Below, in pieces: positions 3,522-14,311 of a stretch of DNA of 34,145 nucleotides. Origin of the DNA: Actinomycetota bacterium (GTDB lineage: Bacteria > Actinomycetota > Acidimicrobiia > Acidimicrobiales > CADCSY01); contig JAHWJR010000004.1 of the NCBI GenBank assembly GCA_019348335.1, forward strand, positions 1 through 34,145, written 5' to 3'. Made by a program: the position numbers and the translations under genes. Under the pieces are notes generated by a model. That model did no database searches, had not been told where the DNA came from, and was given only the letters and a program-made list of their open reading frames with translations. Every line of letters starts with the position of its first letter. The stretch's first letter is position 1.

Positions 3522-4481
3522 TCAGCGCGGTTGCTTCGAGCCGGCGGCCACCGCCCGCCGGGCCCGCCACCACGACCGCAGGCCCTGCGGCGCCTTCCAC
3601 GGCACCCACACCAGCCGGTACAGGTAGCCGGCCACCAGCGCGAGCCGGCTGCGCCGGGCCGGGGGGAACCACAGCCGGATGAACGACGGGGTGGGGACGA
3701 GCTCGCGCCCCACCAGCGCCGCCTTGGCCCGCAGGCCCCGGGCCGCCGCCACCTGCTCGAAGGGCCGGGCCAGGACCGCGGTGGACGACGACTGGAGGAA
3801 CAGCTCGACCGACGTATCCATCGGCACCCCCAGCCGCTCGCCCATCTCCTGGCCCTCGGGGAGCAGGCGCAGTCCCACACCGAAGCCGGGCAGCGCGTCG
3901 AGCTCCTCGGCGATGGCCAGGGCAGCCCGCCACTCGTCCTCGTCGAGCCGGGCCAGAGCCCGGCCCAGGTCCTCGATGGTCTTGCGCCGCCCCGACTCGG
4001 CGTGGAGAGCCACGTGCAGCGCCAGCACCGCCGGCGCCAGCACCTCGGCGGCGACGCCGCCCACCGTGGCCGGCCGGGTGTGGGCGGTGACCACCGCCCA
4101 GCAGCGCTCGGGGGACACCCCCACCTTGGCCGAGAGGATCTTGTGCAGGTCGACCGACGGTGAGCCCGGCCGGTCCCAGTTGTCGGCGTGGTCGGCCTGC
4201 TCGCCGGCCGCGCTTCCCGTGTAGCGGGGGGTGTAGCCGAGGCTGGCGAGGACCTCGCCGGCGGCACCGAAGCGCTCGGGCGCCACCAGCAGGTCGACGT
4301 CGGCGTAGTAGCGGGCCTGACCGTCGTCGTAGAGCCAGCGGGCGAAGGAGGCGCCCTTCAGCAGCACCGAGCGGATGCCGCGACGAGAGAGCGCGTCGAC
4401 GGCCTGACCGGCGACCTGGTCGACGGCCAGGCTCAGCATGGTCACGGCGAGTGGGTTCGTCGCCGGTTGCGGGGTTGCCAT
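3522..4481 (-). CDS. Uncharacterised nucleotidyltransferase (NTP_transf_5-like family)
   Basis: Motif IRSVLLKGASFARWLYDDGQARYYADVDLLVAPERF is typical of this family. Convergent with the BY-kinase with a 3-nt gap between stop codons. Downstream of the GT4 gene in the same orientation. The start could instead be the internal Met (MLSLAV). Confidence 0.7.
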   Translation of the reverse strand: MATPQPATNPLAVTMLSLAVDQVAGQAVDALSRRGIRSVLLKGASFARWLYDDGQARYYADVDLLVAPERFGAAGEVLASLGYTPRYTGSAAGEQADHADNWDRPGSPSVDLHKILSAKVGVSPERCWAVVTAHTRPATVGGVAAEVLAPAVLALHVALHAESGRRKTIEDLGRALARLDEDEWRAALAIAEELDALPGFGVGLRLLPEGQEMGERLGVPMDTSVELFLQSSSTAVLARPFEQVAAARGLRAKAALVGRELVPTPSFIRLWFPPARRSRLALVAGYLYRLVWVPWKAPQGLRSWWRARRAVAAGSKQPR

Positions 4482-9664: not shown

Positions 9665-9760
9665 TCAGGAAGTCTCGCCCTGGGCGAGCACGACGATGGT
9701 CTGGGTGAGCTCTTCGACACGACCGATCTCGGTCATCTCGGGAGCTTCGTAGTCACGCAT
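9665..9760 (-). CDS. Candidate lasso-type RiPP precursor peptide, 31 aa: MRDYEAPEMTEIGRVEELTQ / TIVVLAQGETS
   Basis: Hand translation of the minus strand from ATG 9760 to TGA 9667-9665; not present in the ORF track. AAGGGA lies about 5 nt upstream of the ATG. The leader fits YxxPxLx3Gx5Tx (Y4, P7, M9, G13, T19). It sits immediately downstream of the Asn-synthetase-like gene. Confidence 0.6.
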   Translation of the reverse strand: MRDYEAPEMTEIGRVEELTQTIVVLAQGETS

Positions 9761-9842: not shown

Positions 9843-11054
9843 TCAAACATCCTCGACCGGGCCGGAGCTCGGGTCGGAAGGAGGCAACGGCTGTTCGCCG
9901 GTCAGCCACGCCCCCTGCAGCAGGGCGACGGCGCCGATCTTGGGCCGGGATGCCGACCACGCCGCCCGCAGGGCCATGGGATCGACCAGGTCCTCGTCGA
10001 CGCCGCGGCCGTCCCAGTGGGCGGCGAAGGCCCGGCTGGTCTCCCGCCAGAAGCCCCCGCCGAGGCTCGACTTGGCCTTGCGGGCGACCACCTCGCCCGG
10101 CAGCACGTCGGCGAACAACGCCCGCATGACCTCGGTCCGCTCGCCGTAGCCGAGCCCGCCCCCGTGGCGGGCGAGGGCGGCGAGGAACCGCGGGTCGAGG
10201 AATGGGTGCACGGCCCTGGCGCCGCAGTCCCGGGCCAGCACGTCGATGGTGGCCAGGCCGAGGGCCAGGCTGCGTCGCCGGGAGAGCCACGGCAGCCACC
10301 GGTCCCAACGTCGGGGTTGGCTGGCGACCTCGGCGGCCACGCCGGACTCCACCATCGCCCGGGGGCCGGGGCGGAGCCAGGGCAGGGGGAGGCGGTGCTG
10401 GCGGGCCTCCCACCTCCGCAGGGGCGGCGGTGCCGCGACCACGCCCAGGTCGATGAGATCGCGCCGACGGGGCCGCCGCCGCCGGCGGGCGACCGAGGAG
10501 AGGCCCGCCCATGGCCACGACCCGAACACGCCGTCGCCGTCATGGCCGGAGAGCAACACGCCGCCCGAGGCCTGTTCGAGCAGGACGTGCTCGTAGTGGA
10601 AGTACGGCGGCCACATGACCCCGTGACGACGCAGCAGGCGGGTGGCGAGCGGTCCCAGGTAGTCGAGCTCGTCCTCGACGTCGATGCGCACCCAGTCGTC
10701 GAGGCCGAGGTGGCCGATCACCCGCTCCTGCCAGCCCGACTCGTCGGCGTCGGCCACACCCGGGTAGCGCAGCGTCACCGGGACGGGCAGGGGCAGGCCT
10801 TCGCGGCGGGCGAGATCGGTGGCCACGGCCAGGACGGCGGAGGAGTCCCTGCCCCCCGAGAAGCCGGCGAAGCAGCGGCCGGTGACCAGCCAGGGGCGCA
10901 GGGCGTCGTCCAGGGCGGCCCTGGGCGACACGTCGGGCCCGACGGAGGGCAGTGGCGGGGTCGGCTGCTCGCCGAAGGGCTTGCCCGAGGCCAACTCCAG
11001 GGCCGTGGCCCGCACCGGCTTGGGCTCGATCGGGGTCCGGCCGGTCTGCGGCAC
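9843..11054 (-). CDS. Asparagine-synthetase-like ATP-dependent amidotransferase (lasso cyclase C-like) lacking the N-terminal glutaminase-like domain
   Basis: PP-loop FSGGRDSSAVLAVA and later Asn-synthase-like segments (HPFLDPRFL, SSLGGGFW). I prefer GTG 11054, preceded by GGGAGAG 10 nt upstream and 20 nt after the permease stop. The ATG at 11135 would overlap the permease gene by 61 nt. Confidence 0.75.
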   Translation of the reverse strand: MPQTGRTPIEPKPVRATALELASGKPFGEQPTPPLPSVGPDVSPRAALDDALRPWLVTGRCFAGFSGGRDSSAVLAVATDLARREGLPLPVPVTLRYPGVADADESGWQERVIGHLGLDDWVRIDVEDELDYLGPLATRLLRRHGVMWPPYFHYEHVLLEQASGGVLLSGHDGDGVFGSWPWAGLSSVARRRRRPRRRDLIDLGVVAAPPPLRRWEARQHRLPLPWLRPGPRAMVESGVAAEVASQPRRWDRWLPWLSRRRSLALGLATIDVLARDCGARAVHPFLDPRFLAALARHGGGLGYGERTEVMRALFADVLPGEVVARKAKSSLGGGFWRETSRAFAAHWDGRGVDEDLVDPMALRAAWSASRPKIGAVALLQGAWLTGEQPLPPSDPSSGPVEDV

Positions 11055-11074
11055 GAGAAGGAGGCTCTCCCTGC

Positions 11075-11916
11075 TCAGAACTGGGTGAGGGTGCCGCTGC
11101 GGCGGGCTCGGTCGACCGAGAGCCGGAACAACCACAGCGACAGCGGCAGTGACACGACGGCGAAGGCCACCAGGGCCACCAGCCGCCCGGTGGCCAGCTC
11201 TCCCCGGAGCAGCGCCGCCCGCAGCACGTCGACCCCCCAGGTGAAGGGCAGCAGGTCGGCCACCAGCCGGAGCGGGCCGGGCAGCAGGTCGATGGGGAAG
11301 TAGGCGCCGGCGAGCAGGCCGAGGGCGGTGGTCACCAGGCCGATGAGGGCGGTGACCTGCTTGACCACCACCGCGAACGAGGCCACGAGCACGCCGACGG
11401 CGGCGAAGGTGACCACCAGGGCCGGGAGCCCGACGACCAGACCGACGATGGAGCCCACACCCAGCTCGATGCGCAGACCGAAGAGCGAGGCGACCAGCAG
11501 CGTGACCAGCCCACCGATCAGCGCCCGCAGCAGCTCGAAGGTGGCGCTGCCCAGCACCACCGCCGACGGCGACACCGGGGAGGCCAGGAGGGTCTCGAAC
11601 GTGCCGCTGGTCTGTTCGGTGCGCAACTTCATGGAGAACGAGGTCAGGGCCGTCTGCACCATGCGCAGCACGATCAGCCCCACGGCGGCGTAGGAGAAGT
11701 AGCCCTTGCTCAGGTCGGCGTCGGCCGGCAGCCGGGAGGGCTCCACCAGTTCGGCGAGGAAGTAGAACAGGGCCAGGGCGAGAGGGACCACGGCCAGGTC
11801 GAGCACGAACTGGAGCCGGTACGAGCGGGCGATCTTCCAGTCCCGCCGCACGAAGGCCGGCGTCAACACCCTCCAGCGCGCCCGGAGCGGCGCCACGGGC
11901 ACCGCCGAGGTCTGGC

Positions 11917-11920
<4 letters not shown>
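11075..11920 (-). CDS. ABC-2 type transporter permease
   Basis: GTG 11920 overlaps the ATPase stop (GTGA). Product VSQTSAVPVAPLRARWRVLTPAFVRRDWKIARSYRLQFVLDL... has about 6 hydrophobic helices. The upstream part of the 496-aa track ORF is an alternative-frame read across the ATPase gene. Confidence 0.8.
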
Positions 11921-12672
<752 letters not shown>

Positions 12673-12713
12673 CGCCGGGCTTGGGTGCTCAGTTGCCACC
12701 GGAGGGCCCTGCC

Positions 12714-13577
12714 GTGGCGGCGGGCTCGGCTGTCCGGAAGCCCTCGACGGCACGGGCAGGATGCTACGGGCTGACGCTCACCGGGGAGGTGGTCGACCTG
12801 GCGGCGGCCATGATCGGGCCTCCGCTGCCCGGCTGGCCGGCGGTCGAGCTGGAGTGGACGTCGCTGCTCGCCGACCCGCCGGCCGCGGGATCGTTCGGCC
12901 CGTCCAGCGCCGTGCTGTCGCTCCTGAGCGGCGGCCACGCCGTGTTCGACCGCGAGCGACGGGTGGCCCGGTTCCACAAGCCCCGCCCGCCCGAGGGCCA
13001 CGAGCTGGCGCACCCGTGCCTGTCGGCGGTGGGGCTGGTCTTTGCCCGCTGGGACGGCCGGGTGGCGCTGCATGCCGGCGGCGTGGTGGTCGGCGGCCGG
13101 GCGTGGGGCGTGCTGGGGGCCCGGGAGGCGGGCAAGAGCACGACTCTGGCCCACCTGGCCCGCGCCGGCCATGGGGTGCTGTGCGACGACCTGCTGGTCA
13201 TCGACGACGGCCAGGCCTGCGCCGGCCCCCGCACCCTCGACCTGCGCCCGGAGACGGCTCGACGCCTCGAGGGTGAGGACCTGGTCGAGGTGCGCCAGGG
13301 CCAGCGACACCGGGTGCTGCTCCCGCCGGCGCCGGCCACCGTGCCGTTGGGCGGGTTCTTCGTGCTGGGCGTGGGCGACGAGGTCTCCGTCGAGCCGGTG
13401 CCCCCGGTGGAGCGGCTGCCGGCGCTGCAGCCCCATGTCACGTTGCAGCAGATCGGGCTCCCGGGCGCGGGGCTGCTGGAGCTGGTCGGGTTGCCCATGT
13501 GGCGGGTGCACCGCTCACGGGCGTGGGCCGACCTTCCCCGTCTGATCGAGCGGCTGGTGGCCACTGCCGCCGGCTGA
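12714..13577 (+). CDS. HPr-kinase-like P-loop protein (candidate RiPP precursor Ser kinase)
   Basis: LHAGGVVVGGRAWGVLGAREAGKSTTLAHLARAGHGVLCDDLLVID resembles the HPr kinase C-terminal P-loop domain. N-terminal YGLTLTGEVVDL matches the usual start of lasso-associated kinases. Start is uncertain: GTG 12714 is the nearest in-frame start upstream of that segment, and TTG 12681/12693 are also possible. Confidence 0.7.
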   Translation: MAAGSAVRKPSTARAGCYGLTLTGEVVDLAAAMIGPPLPGWPAVELEWTSLLADPPAAGSFGPSSAVLSLLSGGHAVFDRERRVARFHKPRPPEGHELAHPCLSAVGLVFARWDGRVALHAGGVVVGGRAWGVLGAREAGKSTTLAHLARAGHGVLCDDLLVIDDGQACAGPRTLDLRPETARRLEGEDLVEVRQGQRHRVLLPPAPATVPLGGFFVLGVGDEVSVEPVPPVERLPALQPHVTLQQIGLPGAGLLELVGLPMWRVHRSRAWADLPRLIERLVATAAG

Positions 13578-13970
13578 CGGGCTGCCGTTTCCGGCTCCTG
13601 CTGGCGGTGCCGGCCCGGGGGGTGGCCGCCGGCTCACCTCGATGTAACCGGCGGAGGCCTCGGCCGGCTCGCCGTCGAGCCAGGCGTGGGCCTTGAACCC
13701 CTCGCCGGGGGCGGTGACGCCGATGACCAGGTCGCGTGGGCGTCCGTGGGCGGCATCCCAGGTCTGCAACACCGCCGATCGGACCAGGCACGTGTCGCCT
13801 CGGGACGCCAGCACGGCCGCCACCCAGCGCCGGCACCCCCGCGGAAGGGGAGGCGGCGGGGGGACCACGAGGTGATCGATGCCGCCCGCGTCGAGGTCGG
13901 TGCGCACCTGGCGGGCGGTGCGGCGGGCCCACCACATCGCCCGCGCCGAGTTCAGGCCCTTGATCTTCAC
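13515..13970 (-). CDS. Transglutaminase-like cysteine protease (lasso leader peptidase B2-like)
   Basis: Cys in SRGDTCLVRSAVLQ and His/Asp in FKAHAWLDGE. GTG 13970 overlaps the B1 stop (GTGA). The P/G-rich C-terminal tail overlaps the 3' end of the convergent kinase gene by 63 nt. Confidence 0.75.
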   Translation of the reverse strand: MKIKGLNSARAMWWARRTARQVRTDLDAGGIDHLVVPPPPPLPRGCRRWVAAVLASRGDTCLVRSAVLQTWDAAHGRPRDLVIGVTAPGEGFKAHAWLDGEPAEASAGYIEVSRRPPPGPAPPAGAGNGSPSAGGSGHQPLDQTGKVGPRP

Positions 13971-14311
13971 GACTCGAGCAACCCCCGTTCGGCGAGGCTG
14001 GCCACGAAGACGTCGACGTCGCGCTCGGCTCGGGCCCGTTCCACGTCGAAGGTGTCGAGCAGGACCTGCACCAGCTGCGAGCGGGTGGCGCCCTCGACGA
14101 TGGCCGGCCACAGCGCGGCGCCGGCGGCGTTGACCGCCAGGTAGACCGAGCCCGCACGGTCGAGCACGACCACCTGCCCGTCGACCTCCCGCCAGTCGAC
14201 GGCATCGGCCCGCAGGGTGAGCACGCGGTCGGACTCCTCGACCTCGCCGCTCGCTGCGGATGGGGTGGGGTCGTCACGGTCGGCGGGCATGTGTCGATGG
14301 TAGAGGCACAC
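13967..14311 (-). CDS. PqqD-family RiPP recognition element protein (lasso B1-like)
   Basis: WREVDGQVVVLDRAGSVYLAVNAAGAALWPAIVEGATRSQLVQVLLDTFDVERARAERDVDVFVASLAERGLL follows the PqqD pattern. Start is GTG 14311 or ATG 14290. It lies 21-42 nt downstream of the Wzy-like gene. Confidence 0.8.
   Translation of the reverse strand: MCLYHRHMPADRDDPTPSAASGEVEESDRVLTLRADAVDWREVDGQVVVLDRAGSVYLAVNAAGAALWPAIVEGATRSQLVQVLLDTFDVERARAERDVDVFVASLAERGLLES

What the first reader, a model, noticed from the sequence alone, without database searches (positions are those of the whole stretch)
9843..11135. Cyclase homologue is a synthetase domain only, with no N-terminal glutaminase-like domain
Characterised lasso cyclases of the McjC type carry an N-terminal, catalytically dead Ntn-amidotransferase-like domain in front of the Asn-synthetase domain. 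Here the PP-loop SGGRDS begins about 65 residues after GTG 11054, or about 92 after ATG 11135. The upstream DNA is occupied by the ABC permease gene, so there is no room for that domain. A minimal cyclase paired with a minimal core suggests a co-evolved, simplified macrolactam synthetase.
Basis: partly seen in the sequence, partly recalled or inferred. Interest (0 to 1): 0.6.

Follow-up and report, generated by a model that had tools for sequence, protein, structure and literature searches.

The report
Single-domain lasso-type peptide cyclase family
The gene is a real, intact ring-forming enzyme of a lasso-peptide-type gene cluster that lacks the usual front domain, and it belongs to a large uncharacterised family of such single-domain enzymes that would make a compact model for how these peptide rings are made.

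Summary
The ORF at 9843-11054 (-) encodes a 403-aa protein made only of an asparagine-synthetase-type (PP-loop) domain. SGGRDS sits at residues 66-71, and the DNA upstream is an ABC-2 permease gene. One correction: codon 11135 is GTG, not ATG.

The short form is not a frameshift or truncation. An exhaustive profile search finds 1068 protein clusters with E <= 1e-30, and nearly all of the best 150 are 345-425 aa. AlphaFold gives one compact domain (pLDDT 92).

In 81 loci the enzyme sits beside an HprK-like kinase (74), a PqqD/RRE (68), a B2 peptidase (56), an NTP_transf_5 gene (53) and lasso-type precursors (74 loci). In 80 of the 81 loci it is the only Asn-synthetase homologue within about 10 kb. 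Natural fusions to B2, NTP_transf_5 and a sulfotransferase exist. It is therefore most likely the macrolactam synthetase.

Canonical B2-linked cyclases sampled from the same phylum are 600-700 aa and carry a GATase-like N-domain. The short family forms its own clade, outside the AsnB clade.

Most family members pair with 16-30-aa cores, and mini-cores occur only in the window's own subclade. No characterised member was found. Cultured carriers exist (Occultella, Jiangella).

The parts
9843..11054 (-). Single-domain Asn-synthetase-like enzyme (403 aa), the putative macrolactam synthetase ('short C'). Alternative in-frame starts are GTG 11135 (430 aa) and GTG 11015 (390 aa).
   Evidence: ORF. 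The start is supported by the SD and by homologue N-termini. Only PF00733 is found. AF2 gives pLDDT 92.1 and one domain. Foldseek matches TsnB9, AsnB and ASNS synthetase domains.
10842..10859 (-). PP-loop SGGRDS (residues 66-71), the ATP-pyrophosphatase signature.
   Evidence: Read from the sequence. S66, G67, G68, D70, S71 and S72 are invariant in 30 family members. The loop aligns to the AsnB SGGLDS motif.
10971..11006 (-). Family-specific N-terminal motif (T/L)xLELASGxPxG (residues 17-28) that precedes the synthetase core. It has no counterpart in long cyclases.
   Evidence: G28 is invariant; L19, E20, A22 and G24 are at least 90% conserved. The segment is modelled with pLDDT above 90. hhalign to long cyclases starts only at family column 46.
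11064..11070 (-). Shine-Dalgarno-like GGGAGAG upstream of GTG 11054.
   Evidence: Sequence.
9665..9760 (-). Precursor gene: MRDYEAPEMTEIGRVEELTQ | TIVVLAQGETS. It has a lasso-type leader and an 11-aa core with Glu9 and a C-terminal Ser.
   Evidence: Six-frame reading. It hits NF033521 lasso_leader_L3 at 26.9 bits against a cut-off of 19. Orthologues are present in L011-L014.
11075..11914 (-). ABC-2 type permease. It occupies the DNA directly upstream of the cyclase gene. Its start is approximate.
   Evidence: PF01061, E 3e-20. Stop codon at 11077-11075.
11917..12753 (-). ABC transporter ATP-binding subunit (DrrA-like).
   Evidence: PF00005, E 1.9e-29; TIGR01188 at 222 bits.
12714..13577 (+). 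HprK-like P-loop kinase homologue (motifs GAREAGKSTT...GHGVLCDDL), on the opposite strand. Its start is approximate.
   Evidence: Weak hit to TIGR04352. It is homologous to the convergent neighbours of the short C in L001, L003 and L005. A homologue lies within 6 kb of the short C in 74 of 81 loci.
13515..14111 (-). B2 leader peptidase (Transglut_core3). The true start is probably near 13940.
   Evidence: PF13471, E 3.7e-8; NF033537 at 29.4 bits.
13967..14311 (-). B1 / RiPP recognition element (PqqD family).
   Evidence: PF05402, E 1.2e-14; lasso_PqqD_Strm, E 3.6e-11.
3522..4481 (-). NTP_transf_5 nucleotidyltransferase (PsmN-like). It lies about 5 kb beyond the precursor and is a possible tailoring gene of the same system.
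   Evidence: PF14907, E 1.8e-23. A homologue lies within 6 kb of the short C in 53 of 81 loci. A natural C-NTP_transf_5 fusion exists (P0189).

Best explanation
The gene encodes the macrolactam synthetase (C enzyme) of a split-B, kinase-type lasso-family RiPP cluster. It belongs to a large, uncharacterised family of cyclases that consist only of the Asn-synthetase-type ATP-pyrophosphatase domain plus a roughly 45-residue family-specific N-terminal segment.

Inferred mechanism:
1. B1 (PqqD/RRE) binds the YxxPxM...LT-Q leader.
2. B2 cuts after Gln-1.
3. The short C binds ATP at the PP-loop and adenylates the side-chain carboxylate of Glu9 of the core TIVVLAQGETS.
4. The freed alpha-amine of Thr1 attacks and closes a 9-residue isopeptide ring.
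5. The HprK-like kinase probably phosphorylates the C-terminal Ser, and NTP_transf_5 may decorate it further.
6. The ABC-2 transporter exports the product.

Shown here: the domain architecture, family size, conserved catalytic motifs, gene neighbourhood, precursors and natural fusions. Inferred: the chemistry, the order of steps and the role of the kinase.

The pseudo-glutaminase N-domain of canonical cyclases is absent from the whole family. Whatever it contributes must therefore be dispensable, or supplied by the new N-terminal segment or by a partner protein.
For: Architecture:
- Only PF00733 is found, with no GATase domain.
- The family profile aligns to AsnB from residue 203 onward, which is the start of the synthetase domain.
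- hhalign to long lasso cyclases gives prob 99.3 and E 8.5e-21. Family columns 46-393 match template columns 288-655.
- AF2 gives one compact domain (pLDDT 92.1, pTM 0.89).
- The best structural matches are TsnB9, AsnB and human ASNS.

Not an artefact:
- 1068 clusters at E <= 1e-30 among 1.84e9 representatives; nearly all of the best 150 are 345-425 aa and match from residue about 2-35.
- 436 loci were found in GTDB species genomes.

Catalytic competence:
- The PP-loop, the G-x-x-G-D motif (G170, G173, D174), R261, P284, R325 and K328 are invariant.
- These motifs align to AsnB SGGLDS, SGEGSDE and the K449 region.

Context:
- Within 6 kb in 81 loci there is an HprK-like gene in 74, PqqD in 68, B2 in 56 and NTP_transf_5 in 53.
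- Lasso-type precursors occur in 74 loci. All seven precursors tested pass the NF033521 cut-off.
- The short C is the only Asn-synthetase homologue within about 10 kb in 80 of 81 loci.
- Fusions B2-C, C-NTP_transf_5 and C-sulfotransferase exist.

Phylogeny:
- The family is one clade (SH-aLRT 100), outside the Cys1-bearing AsnB clade.

Literature:
- The McjC residues shown to matter for core and McjB contacts (K337, R438, S440; also K252, K388) lie in the synthetase half of the 513-aa enzyme (PMC11420955, PMC13352647).
- PsmC alone suffices for ring formation in pseudomycoidin (PMC6993621).
Against: - No member of the family has been characterised, and I found no paper that describes it.
- Curated lasso-cyclase and AsnB models score far below their cut-offs: NF033535 at 19.4 against 525 bits, TIGR01536 at 18.3 against 267.
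- An HMM built from long actinobacterial cyclases hits only two of the 90 short-family ORFs in the 81 loci at E <= 1e-5.
- Deep tree nodes are weak (82-84), so sisterhood to long cyclases is not established.
- In one locus (L191) a long, Cys1-less cyclase and a short C lie in the same operon with a single detected precursor. There the short enzyme may do something other than the first ring closure.
- B2 was detected in only 56 of 81 loci.
- The window's core starts with Thr (unusual) and leaves a 2-residue tail, so its product cannot be a threaded lasso.
Confidence: 0.75

Rival explanations
1. Two-component cyclase. The short C is active only together with the HprK-like P-loop protein. That protein would replace the missing N-domain structurally, or prime the substrate, rather than act as an optional tailoring kinase.
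For: The HprK-like gene is the most constant neighbour of the short C (74 of 81 loci). It is more constant than B2 (56 of 81) or PqqD (68 of 81) and is usually convergent and abutting. Most precursors outside the window's subclade do not end in Ser (25 of 81 do), although the known lasso kinases act on a C-terminal Ser (PMC8498205).
Against: HprK-like genes also sit next to about 9 of 23 long, two-domain cyclases sampled from the same phylum, for example L159. They are therefore not specific to the domain-less enzymes. In paeninodin and pseudomycoidin the kinase is dispensable for ring formation (PMC6993621, PMC8498205). Seven of 81 loci have no kinase within 6 kb.
Confidence: 0.15
2. Tailoring amide ligase or amidotransferase, not the cyclase. 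The enzyme would adenylate a carboxylate (Asp/Glu side chain or the C-terminus) and couple it to free ammonia or to another amine, such as a glycan or lipid amine of the surrounding surface-polymer locus.
For: It has no glutaminase domain, so any amidation would be ammonia- or amine-dependent. The window's cluster is embedded among glycosyltransferases and a Wzy-like gene. In L191 a long cyclase coexists with a short C and a PaaK-like ligase. The closest structural match, TsnB9, is an Asn-synthetase-like enzyme that makes a non-ring amide.
Against: In 80 of 81 loci no other Asn-synthetase homologue is present to close the ring, yet lasso leaders, RRE and B2 are there. A natural B2-C fusion exists. 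Glycan genes are not a constant neighbour across the family.
Confidence: 0.08
3. Truncated pseudogene, frameshift or assembly artefact of a normal two-domain cyclase or AsnB.
For: The genome is a fragmented MAG (316 contigs, 87.7% complete).
Against: The same length and start are seen in more than 1000 clusters from many assemblies, including complete chromosomes and cultured strains. Catalytic motifs are invariant. The AF2 model is confident. The upstream DNA encodes a bona fide permease, and no frame holds N-domain-like sequence.
Confidence: 0.01

Closest known systems
Canonical lasso peptide cyclases (McjC, FusC and other C proteins)
   Same: Both have an Asn-synthetase-type PP-loop domain (hhalign prob 99.3 over about 335 columns). 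Both are linked to B1/RRE, the B2 peptidase and precursors with the YxxPxL...T-x leader. An ATP-dependent isopeptide ring closure is expected in both.
   Different: The short family lacks the roughly 200-270-residue Cys1-less GATase-like N-domain that 600-700-aa B2-linked cyclases of the same phylum have. It is only 18% identical to them, forms a separate clade, has its own N-terminal LELASG segment, and is not recognised by the NCBIfam cyclase model.
Paeninodin / pseudomycoidin-type clusters (A-C-K-B1-B2-N-D) of Bacillota, and related proteobacterial clusters
   Same: The accessory set is the same: an HprK homologue, an NTP_transf_5 nucleotidyltransferase, sometimes a sulfotransferase, an ABC exporter, and in the window's clade a C-terminal Ser on the precursor (PMC8498205, PMC6993621).
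   Different: Those systems were described in Bacillota and Proteobacteria, whereas this family is actinobacterial. I could not determine the length of PadeC or PsmC with the tools at hand. The window's core is 11 aa, compared with more than 20 aa in those systems.
Asparagine synthetase B (glutamine-hydrolysing), e.g. E. coli AsnB 1CT9
   Same: Same synthetase fold and motifs.
   Different: The short enzyme has no Cys1 glutaminase domain. TIGR01536 scores 18.3 bits against a cut-off of 267. The genome has its own true AsnB on contig C286. The two fall in separate clades.
Asn-synthetase-like amide-forming enzymes of secondary metabolism (beta-lactam synthetase 1JGT, TsnB9 7YLZ)
   Same: They use the same domain for acyl-adenylate-mediated amide formation, and beta-lactam synthetase does so intramolecularly. 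They are the top sequence and structure matches in the PDB.
   Different: Those enzymes keep an N-terminal domain and act on small molecules, not on RRE-delivered peptides.

Membership tests
Lasso peptide cyclase (C protein) | Asn-synthetase B-like ATP-pyrophosphatase domain with an SGGxDS PP-loop and the downstream G-x-G-D and Lys motifs | tested here: met
   PF00733, E 3.8e-13. SGGRDS is invariant in the family. The motifs align to AsnB. Fold match to AsnB and TsnB9. hhalign prob 99.3 to long cyclases.
Lasso peptide cyclase (C protein) | N-terminal, catalytically dead GATase/Ntn-like domain of about 200-270 residues before the PP-loop | tested here: not met
   The PP-loop is at residue 66 and there is no GATase hit. 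Long comparators have the PP-loop at 240-300 and GATase_7 hits in three of the four tested. No such sequence occurs in any frame upstream.
Lasso peptide cyclase (C protein) | Encoded with an RRE (B1 or the B N-terminus), a B2 transglutaminase-like peptidase and a precursor with a lasso leader | tested here: met
   In the window: PqqD, Transglut_core3 and the precursor. In the family: PqqD in 68, B2 in 56 and precursors in 74 of 81 loci. A B2-C fusion exists.
Lasso peptide cyclase (C protein) | Scores above the cut-off of a curated lasso-cyclase model (NCBIfam NF033535) | tested here: not met
   19.4 bits against a cut-off of 525. That model is a narrow 'exception' type and also scores ordinary AsnB highly, so this failure carries little weight.
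Lasso peptide cyclase (C protein) | Catalyses the N-terminus-to-Asp/Glu(7-9) isopeptide bond and yields a threaded product | not testable with these tools
   This needs expression plus MS/NMR. The window's core has Glu9 but only a 2-residue tail, so threading is sterically implausible there.
Glutamine-hydrolysing asparagine synthase (AsnB, TIGR01536) | N-terminal Cys1 glutaminase domain and a full-length match to TIGR01536 | tested here: not met
   No N-domain is present. TIGR01536 scores 18.3 bits against a cut-off of 267. The family lies outside the Cys1-AsnB clade. The genome has a separate true AsnB.
Kinase-type (paeninodin/pseudomycoidin-like) lasso clusters | HprK homologue with GxxGxGKS(T) and DD motifs in the cluster, and a precursor ending in Ser | tested here: met
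   GAREAGKSTT...CDDL in the gene at 12714-13577. The precursor ends ...GETS. In the window's subclade 11 of 12 precursors end in Ser.
Kinase-type (paeninodin/pseudomycoidin-like) lasso clusters | PsmN-like NTP_transf_5 nucleotidyltransferase in the cluster | tested here: inconclusive
   A PF14907 gene exists at 3522-4481, but about 5 kb away behind glycosyltransferase genes. It lies within 6 kb in 53 of 81 family loci.

The most novel reading that the evidence does not exclude
The pseudo-glutaminase N-domain of lasso cyclases is dispensable. This family of more than 1000 clusters of roughly 400-aa single-domain enzymes would make genuine threaded lasso peptides from its ordinary 16-30-aa cores, for example in Occultella and Jiangella. 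That would make it the minimal lasso cyclase and a tractable target for the first experimental cyclase structure. The opposite outcome would be equally informative: if the family makes only unthreaded branched-cyclic peptides, the N-domain is what folds the knot.
Probability: 0.4. Interest if true: 0.75.

Novelty: new variant of a known kind. Interest (0 to 1): 0.6.

Why it matters
Two papers in the library (PMC13352647, 2026; PMC11420955, 2024) state that no lasso cyclase structure has been solved. PMC11420955 also reports that the enzymes are very hard to handle. What the dead N-terminal domain does is an open question.

This family is a natural experiment. It is large, conserved and single-domain, it sits in otherwise complete lasso clusters, and it occurs in cultured actinobacteria. 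It allows a direct test of whether the N-domain is needed for adenylation, ring closure or threading.

It also offers a smaller enzyme, confidently modelled as one domain, for structural work and engineering.

Current annotation names these proteins only 'asparagine synthase-related' or 'C-terminal domain-containing'. Hundreds of RiPP clusters in Acidimicrobiia, Thermoleophilia and some Actinomycetes are therefore under-described.

Tried and rejected
- **Frameshift or hidden N-domain.** Rejected. The alternative upstream frame has no start codon and no Pfam hit, the permease frame is real, and the long-cyclase HMM finds nothing else in the window.
- **Housekeeping or glycan-modifying AsnB.** Rejected by the tree, by context and by the presence of a separate true AsnB.
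- **NF033535 as a probe for canonical cyclases across the phylum.** Uninformative. The model mostly pulled ordinary AsnB through its N-terminal half. I switched to B2 (NF033537) hits and fetched their surroundings.
- **phmmer of the single protein against the PDB.** Nothing useful. The family profile was needed.
- **tblastn against PLSDB plasmids.** No match.
- **Single-sequence tblastn for neighbours.** It under-counted B2 and kinase genes, for example in Occultella. I replaced it with iterated HMMs.
- **The 'long' hit in L196/L022.** Spurious. It is a secreted FN3-type protein with a chance SAGRDS motif.
- **Literature searches for truncated or domain-less lasso cyclases.** They returned nothing relevant. 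Zhu et al. 2016 (JBC) is not held, so I could not learn the length of PadeC or PsmC.
- **HprK-like protein as a specific substitute for the N-domain.** Weakened, because long cyclases also have such neighbours.
Full report
**Observation**

The minus-strand ORF 9843..11135 is real. Codon 11135 is GTG, not ATG. The likely start is GTG 11054. It is preceded by GGGAGAG (11070-11064) and lies 20 nt after the stop (TGA 11077-11075) of the upstream gene. The closest homologues, 403-406 aa long, start at the same residues MPQTG. The product has 403 aa, with SGGRDS at residues 66-71 (nt 10859-10842).

Pfam reports only Asn_synthase, and no GATase family. The upstream 11075-11950 encodes an ABC2_membrane permease (E 3e-20). 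The open frame that continues the cyclase frame upstream has no start codon and no Pfam hit. An HMM built from full-length lasso cyclases finds no N-domain-like sequence in any open frame of the window.

**It is a family, not an accident**

A word-indexed search returned 1385 relatives. The best 120 are 304-421 aa long, all are PF00733-only, and the few that carry a source name are labelled Actinobacteria, Actinomycetota, Acidimicrobiales or Solirubrobacteraceae.

An exhaustive profile search of 1.84 billion representatives gave 1068 clusters at E <= 1e-30. Nearly all of the best 150 are 345-425 aa and match from about residue 2-35.

A scan of one genome per GTDB species found 436 loci. The best 80 are Acidimicrobiia, Thermoleophilia (Solirubrobacterales, Gaiellales) and a few Actinomycetes. 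They include cultured Occultella aeris, O. gossypii, O. glacieicola and Jiangella muralis. In an even sample of 301 Actinomycetota genomes the profile hits 7.

The alignment shows the following:
- an invariant PP-loop;
- G170/G173/D174;
- R261, P284, R325 and K328;
- a family-specific N-terminal motif LELASGxPxG (residues about 17-28).

**Fold and homology**

The family profile reaches E. coli AsnB (E 9e-6), starting at AsnB residue 203, which is the start of the synthetase domain. It also reaches beta-lactam synthetase.

AlphaFold2 with the family alignment gives one compact domain (pLDDT 92.1, pTM 0.89). Confidence is high from residue 11 on.

Foldseek against the PDB puts TsnB9, AsnB and human ASNS first (prob 1.00), followed by the single-domain PP-loop enzyme LarE. 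Two papers state that no lasso cyclase structure exists (PMC13352647, PMC11420955).

**Context**

The window's cluster reads as follows:
- B1 (PqqD);
- B2 (Transglut_core3);
- an HprK-like gene on the other strand;
- ABC ATPase;
- ABC-2 permease;
- short C;
- a 31-codon precursor, MRDYEAPEMTEIGRVEELTQ|TIVVLAQGETS.

Across 81 loci, iterated HMMs find these genes within 6 kb of the short C:

| Neighbour | Loci (of 81) |
|---|---|
| HprK-like | 74 |
| PqqD | 68 |
| B2 | 56 |
| NTP_transf_5 | 53 |

A leader regex finds 93 lasso-type precursors in 74 loci. All seven precursors tested pass NCBIfam's lasso_leader_L3 cut-off.

Only one of the 81 loci holds a second, long Asn-synthetase homologue. The short enzyme is therefore the only candidate ring-closer in nearly all of them.

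Natural fusions exist: B2-C (P0202), C-NTP_transf_5 (P0189) and C-sulfotransferase (P0219). The kinase, nucleotidyltransferase and sulfotransferase are the accessory genes already described for phosphorylated and glycosylated lasso peptides of Bacillota and Proteobacteria (PMC8498205, PMC6993621).

**Comparison with canonical cyclases of the same phylum**

I took all B2 (NF033537) hits in 301 Actinomycetota genomes and fetched their surroundings. About 23 loci carry long cyclases: 600-700 aa, with the PP-loop at about 240-300 and GATase_7/6 hits in three of the four tested. The short family sits next to B2 in four of these genomes besides the window's own.

hhalign of the short family against the long set gives prob 99.3 and E 8.5e-21 at 18% identity. 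It covers only the synthetase half, with family columns 46-393 matching template columns 288-655.

In a maximum-likelihood tree of synthetase domains the short family is one clade (SH-aLRT 100, stem 0.98). It lies outside the Cys1-bearing AsnB clade. It sits only weakly (82-84) beside some long B2-linked cyclases. The genome has its own true AsnB elsewhere.

**Mechanism**

Inferred from the family chemistry: ATP is bound at the PP-loop, the Glu9 side-chain carboxylate is adenylated, and the Thr1 alpha-amine attacks after B1-guided, B2-catalysed leader removal. Export is by the ABC-2 pair. The HprK-like kinase probably phosphorylates the C-terminal Ser.

Published mutational data place the McjC residues that matter for the core and for McjB (K337, R438, S440; K252, K388) in the synthetase half of the 513-aa McjC (PMC11420955, PMC13352647). 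This is compatible with a synthetase-only cyclase. With a 2-residue tail the window's product cannot be threaded. It would be a small branched-cyclic peptide.

**The co-evolution idea**

Outside the window's subclade the cores have a median of 23 aa (range 8-35). G1 occurs in 36 of 81, and Asp/Glu at position 7-9 in 50 of 81. Inside the ABC-linked subclade (L011-L019, L035 and the window) the median is 14 aa, and 11 of 12 cores end in Ser. The domain-less architecture is family-wide, and the mini-core is a local specialisation. 'Minimal cyclase because minimal core' is not supported.

**Caveats and rivals**

- No member is characterised, and I found no paper on such enzymes. I could not establish the length of PadeC or PsmC.
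- In L191 a long, Cys1-less cyclase, a precursor, B1, B2, K, a PaaK-like ligase and a short C share one operon. There the short enzyme may form a different bond.
- The kinase is the most constant neighbour, which invites a two-component model. However, about 9 of 23 long cyclases also have HprK-like neighbours.
- A tailoring-ligase role cannot be excluded without chemistry.

**Verdict**

The gene is a bona fide member of a large, unnamed, single-domain branch of lasso-type cyclases, which makes it a new variant of a known kind. It is of real interest for the unresolved role of the cyclase N-domain and as a structural target. The specific 'co-evolved with a minimal core' reading is not supported.

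Noticed in passing
L011-L090 (family loci); window 12714-13577: The HprK-like P-loop gene is the most constant neighbour of the short cyclase (74 of 81 loci). It is more constant than the B2 peptidase (56 of 81). Only 25 of 81 precursors outside the window's subclade end in Ser, the residue that known lasso kinases phosphorylate.
   Followed up: partly
L191 9442-15978 (G236:C10): One operon holds B2, an HprK-like gene, a long Cys1-less cyclase, a precursor (..YESPQIIDLGAFEDLTQ|KDSGHANDGSEGSGSGGL), PqqD, a PaaK-like adenylate-forming ligase and a short cyclase. A sugar transferase follows. Two Asn-synthetase-like enzymes thus share one detected precursor.
   Followed up: partly
P0202, P0189, P0219: Natural fusion proteins exist: B2 peptidase-short cyclase (537 aa), short cyclase-NTP_transf_5 (701 aa) and short cyclase-sulfotransferase (701 aa). 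P0252 (768 aa) has an unassigned C-terminal extension of about 360 aa.
   Followed up: partly
L175-L185, L193 (B2 hits in family f33 and others): Several NF033537 (B2-like) hits in Actinomycetota lie beside PqqD-like and NTP_transf_5-like genes but have no Asn-synthetase homologue within about 9 kb. This would be an RRE + peptidase + nucleotidyltransferase set without a cyclase.
   Followed up: no
L037, L041, L048, L058, L059, L061, L063, L087, L090: Gaiellales and Thermoleophilia loci carry paired precursors of two conserved types. One ends ...GPPDY(F/V)x(F/W)IP(I/V)xNCS(S/T). The other is ...QDK(M/x)(Y/L)GxSDGFTF(M/L)GxxIxNxSP. The paired types suggest two-peptide products or a Cys-containing class.
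   Followed up: no
L077 9281-13786 (Occultella aeris CIP 111667); also L082, L086, L066: Cultured strains carry the full set B1-A-shortC-B2-HprK, with NTP_transf_5 on the opposite strand. The core looks like a classic lasso core (GEGWAGSDDTFLYFIRYGTDPSS). A GT2 and a GT4 gene lie just upstream.
   Followed up: partly
window 3522-4481 (-): A PsmN-like NTP_transf_5 gene (PF14907, E 1.8e-23) lies about 5 kb from the precursor. It is separated from it by glycosyltransferase, membrane-protein and hydrolase genes, so the RiPP set may extend into the glycan locus.
   Followed up: partly
L015-L018 precursors: In several subclade cores the first acidic residue after position 2 is at position 10 (GDINVQVTGD.., QTNLATVAGDD..). 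If the T(-2) cleavage rule holds, this implies a 10-membered ring, a different cleavage site, or use of Asp2.
   Followed up: no
L151-L155, L157 (long cyclases): One subgroup of long actinobacterial lasso cyclases has a degenerate PP-loop, D-L-G-G-(L/V/F)-D-S-T, instead of SGGxDS.
   Followed up: no
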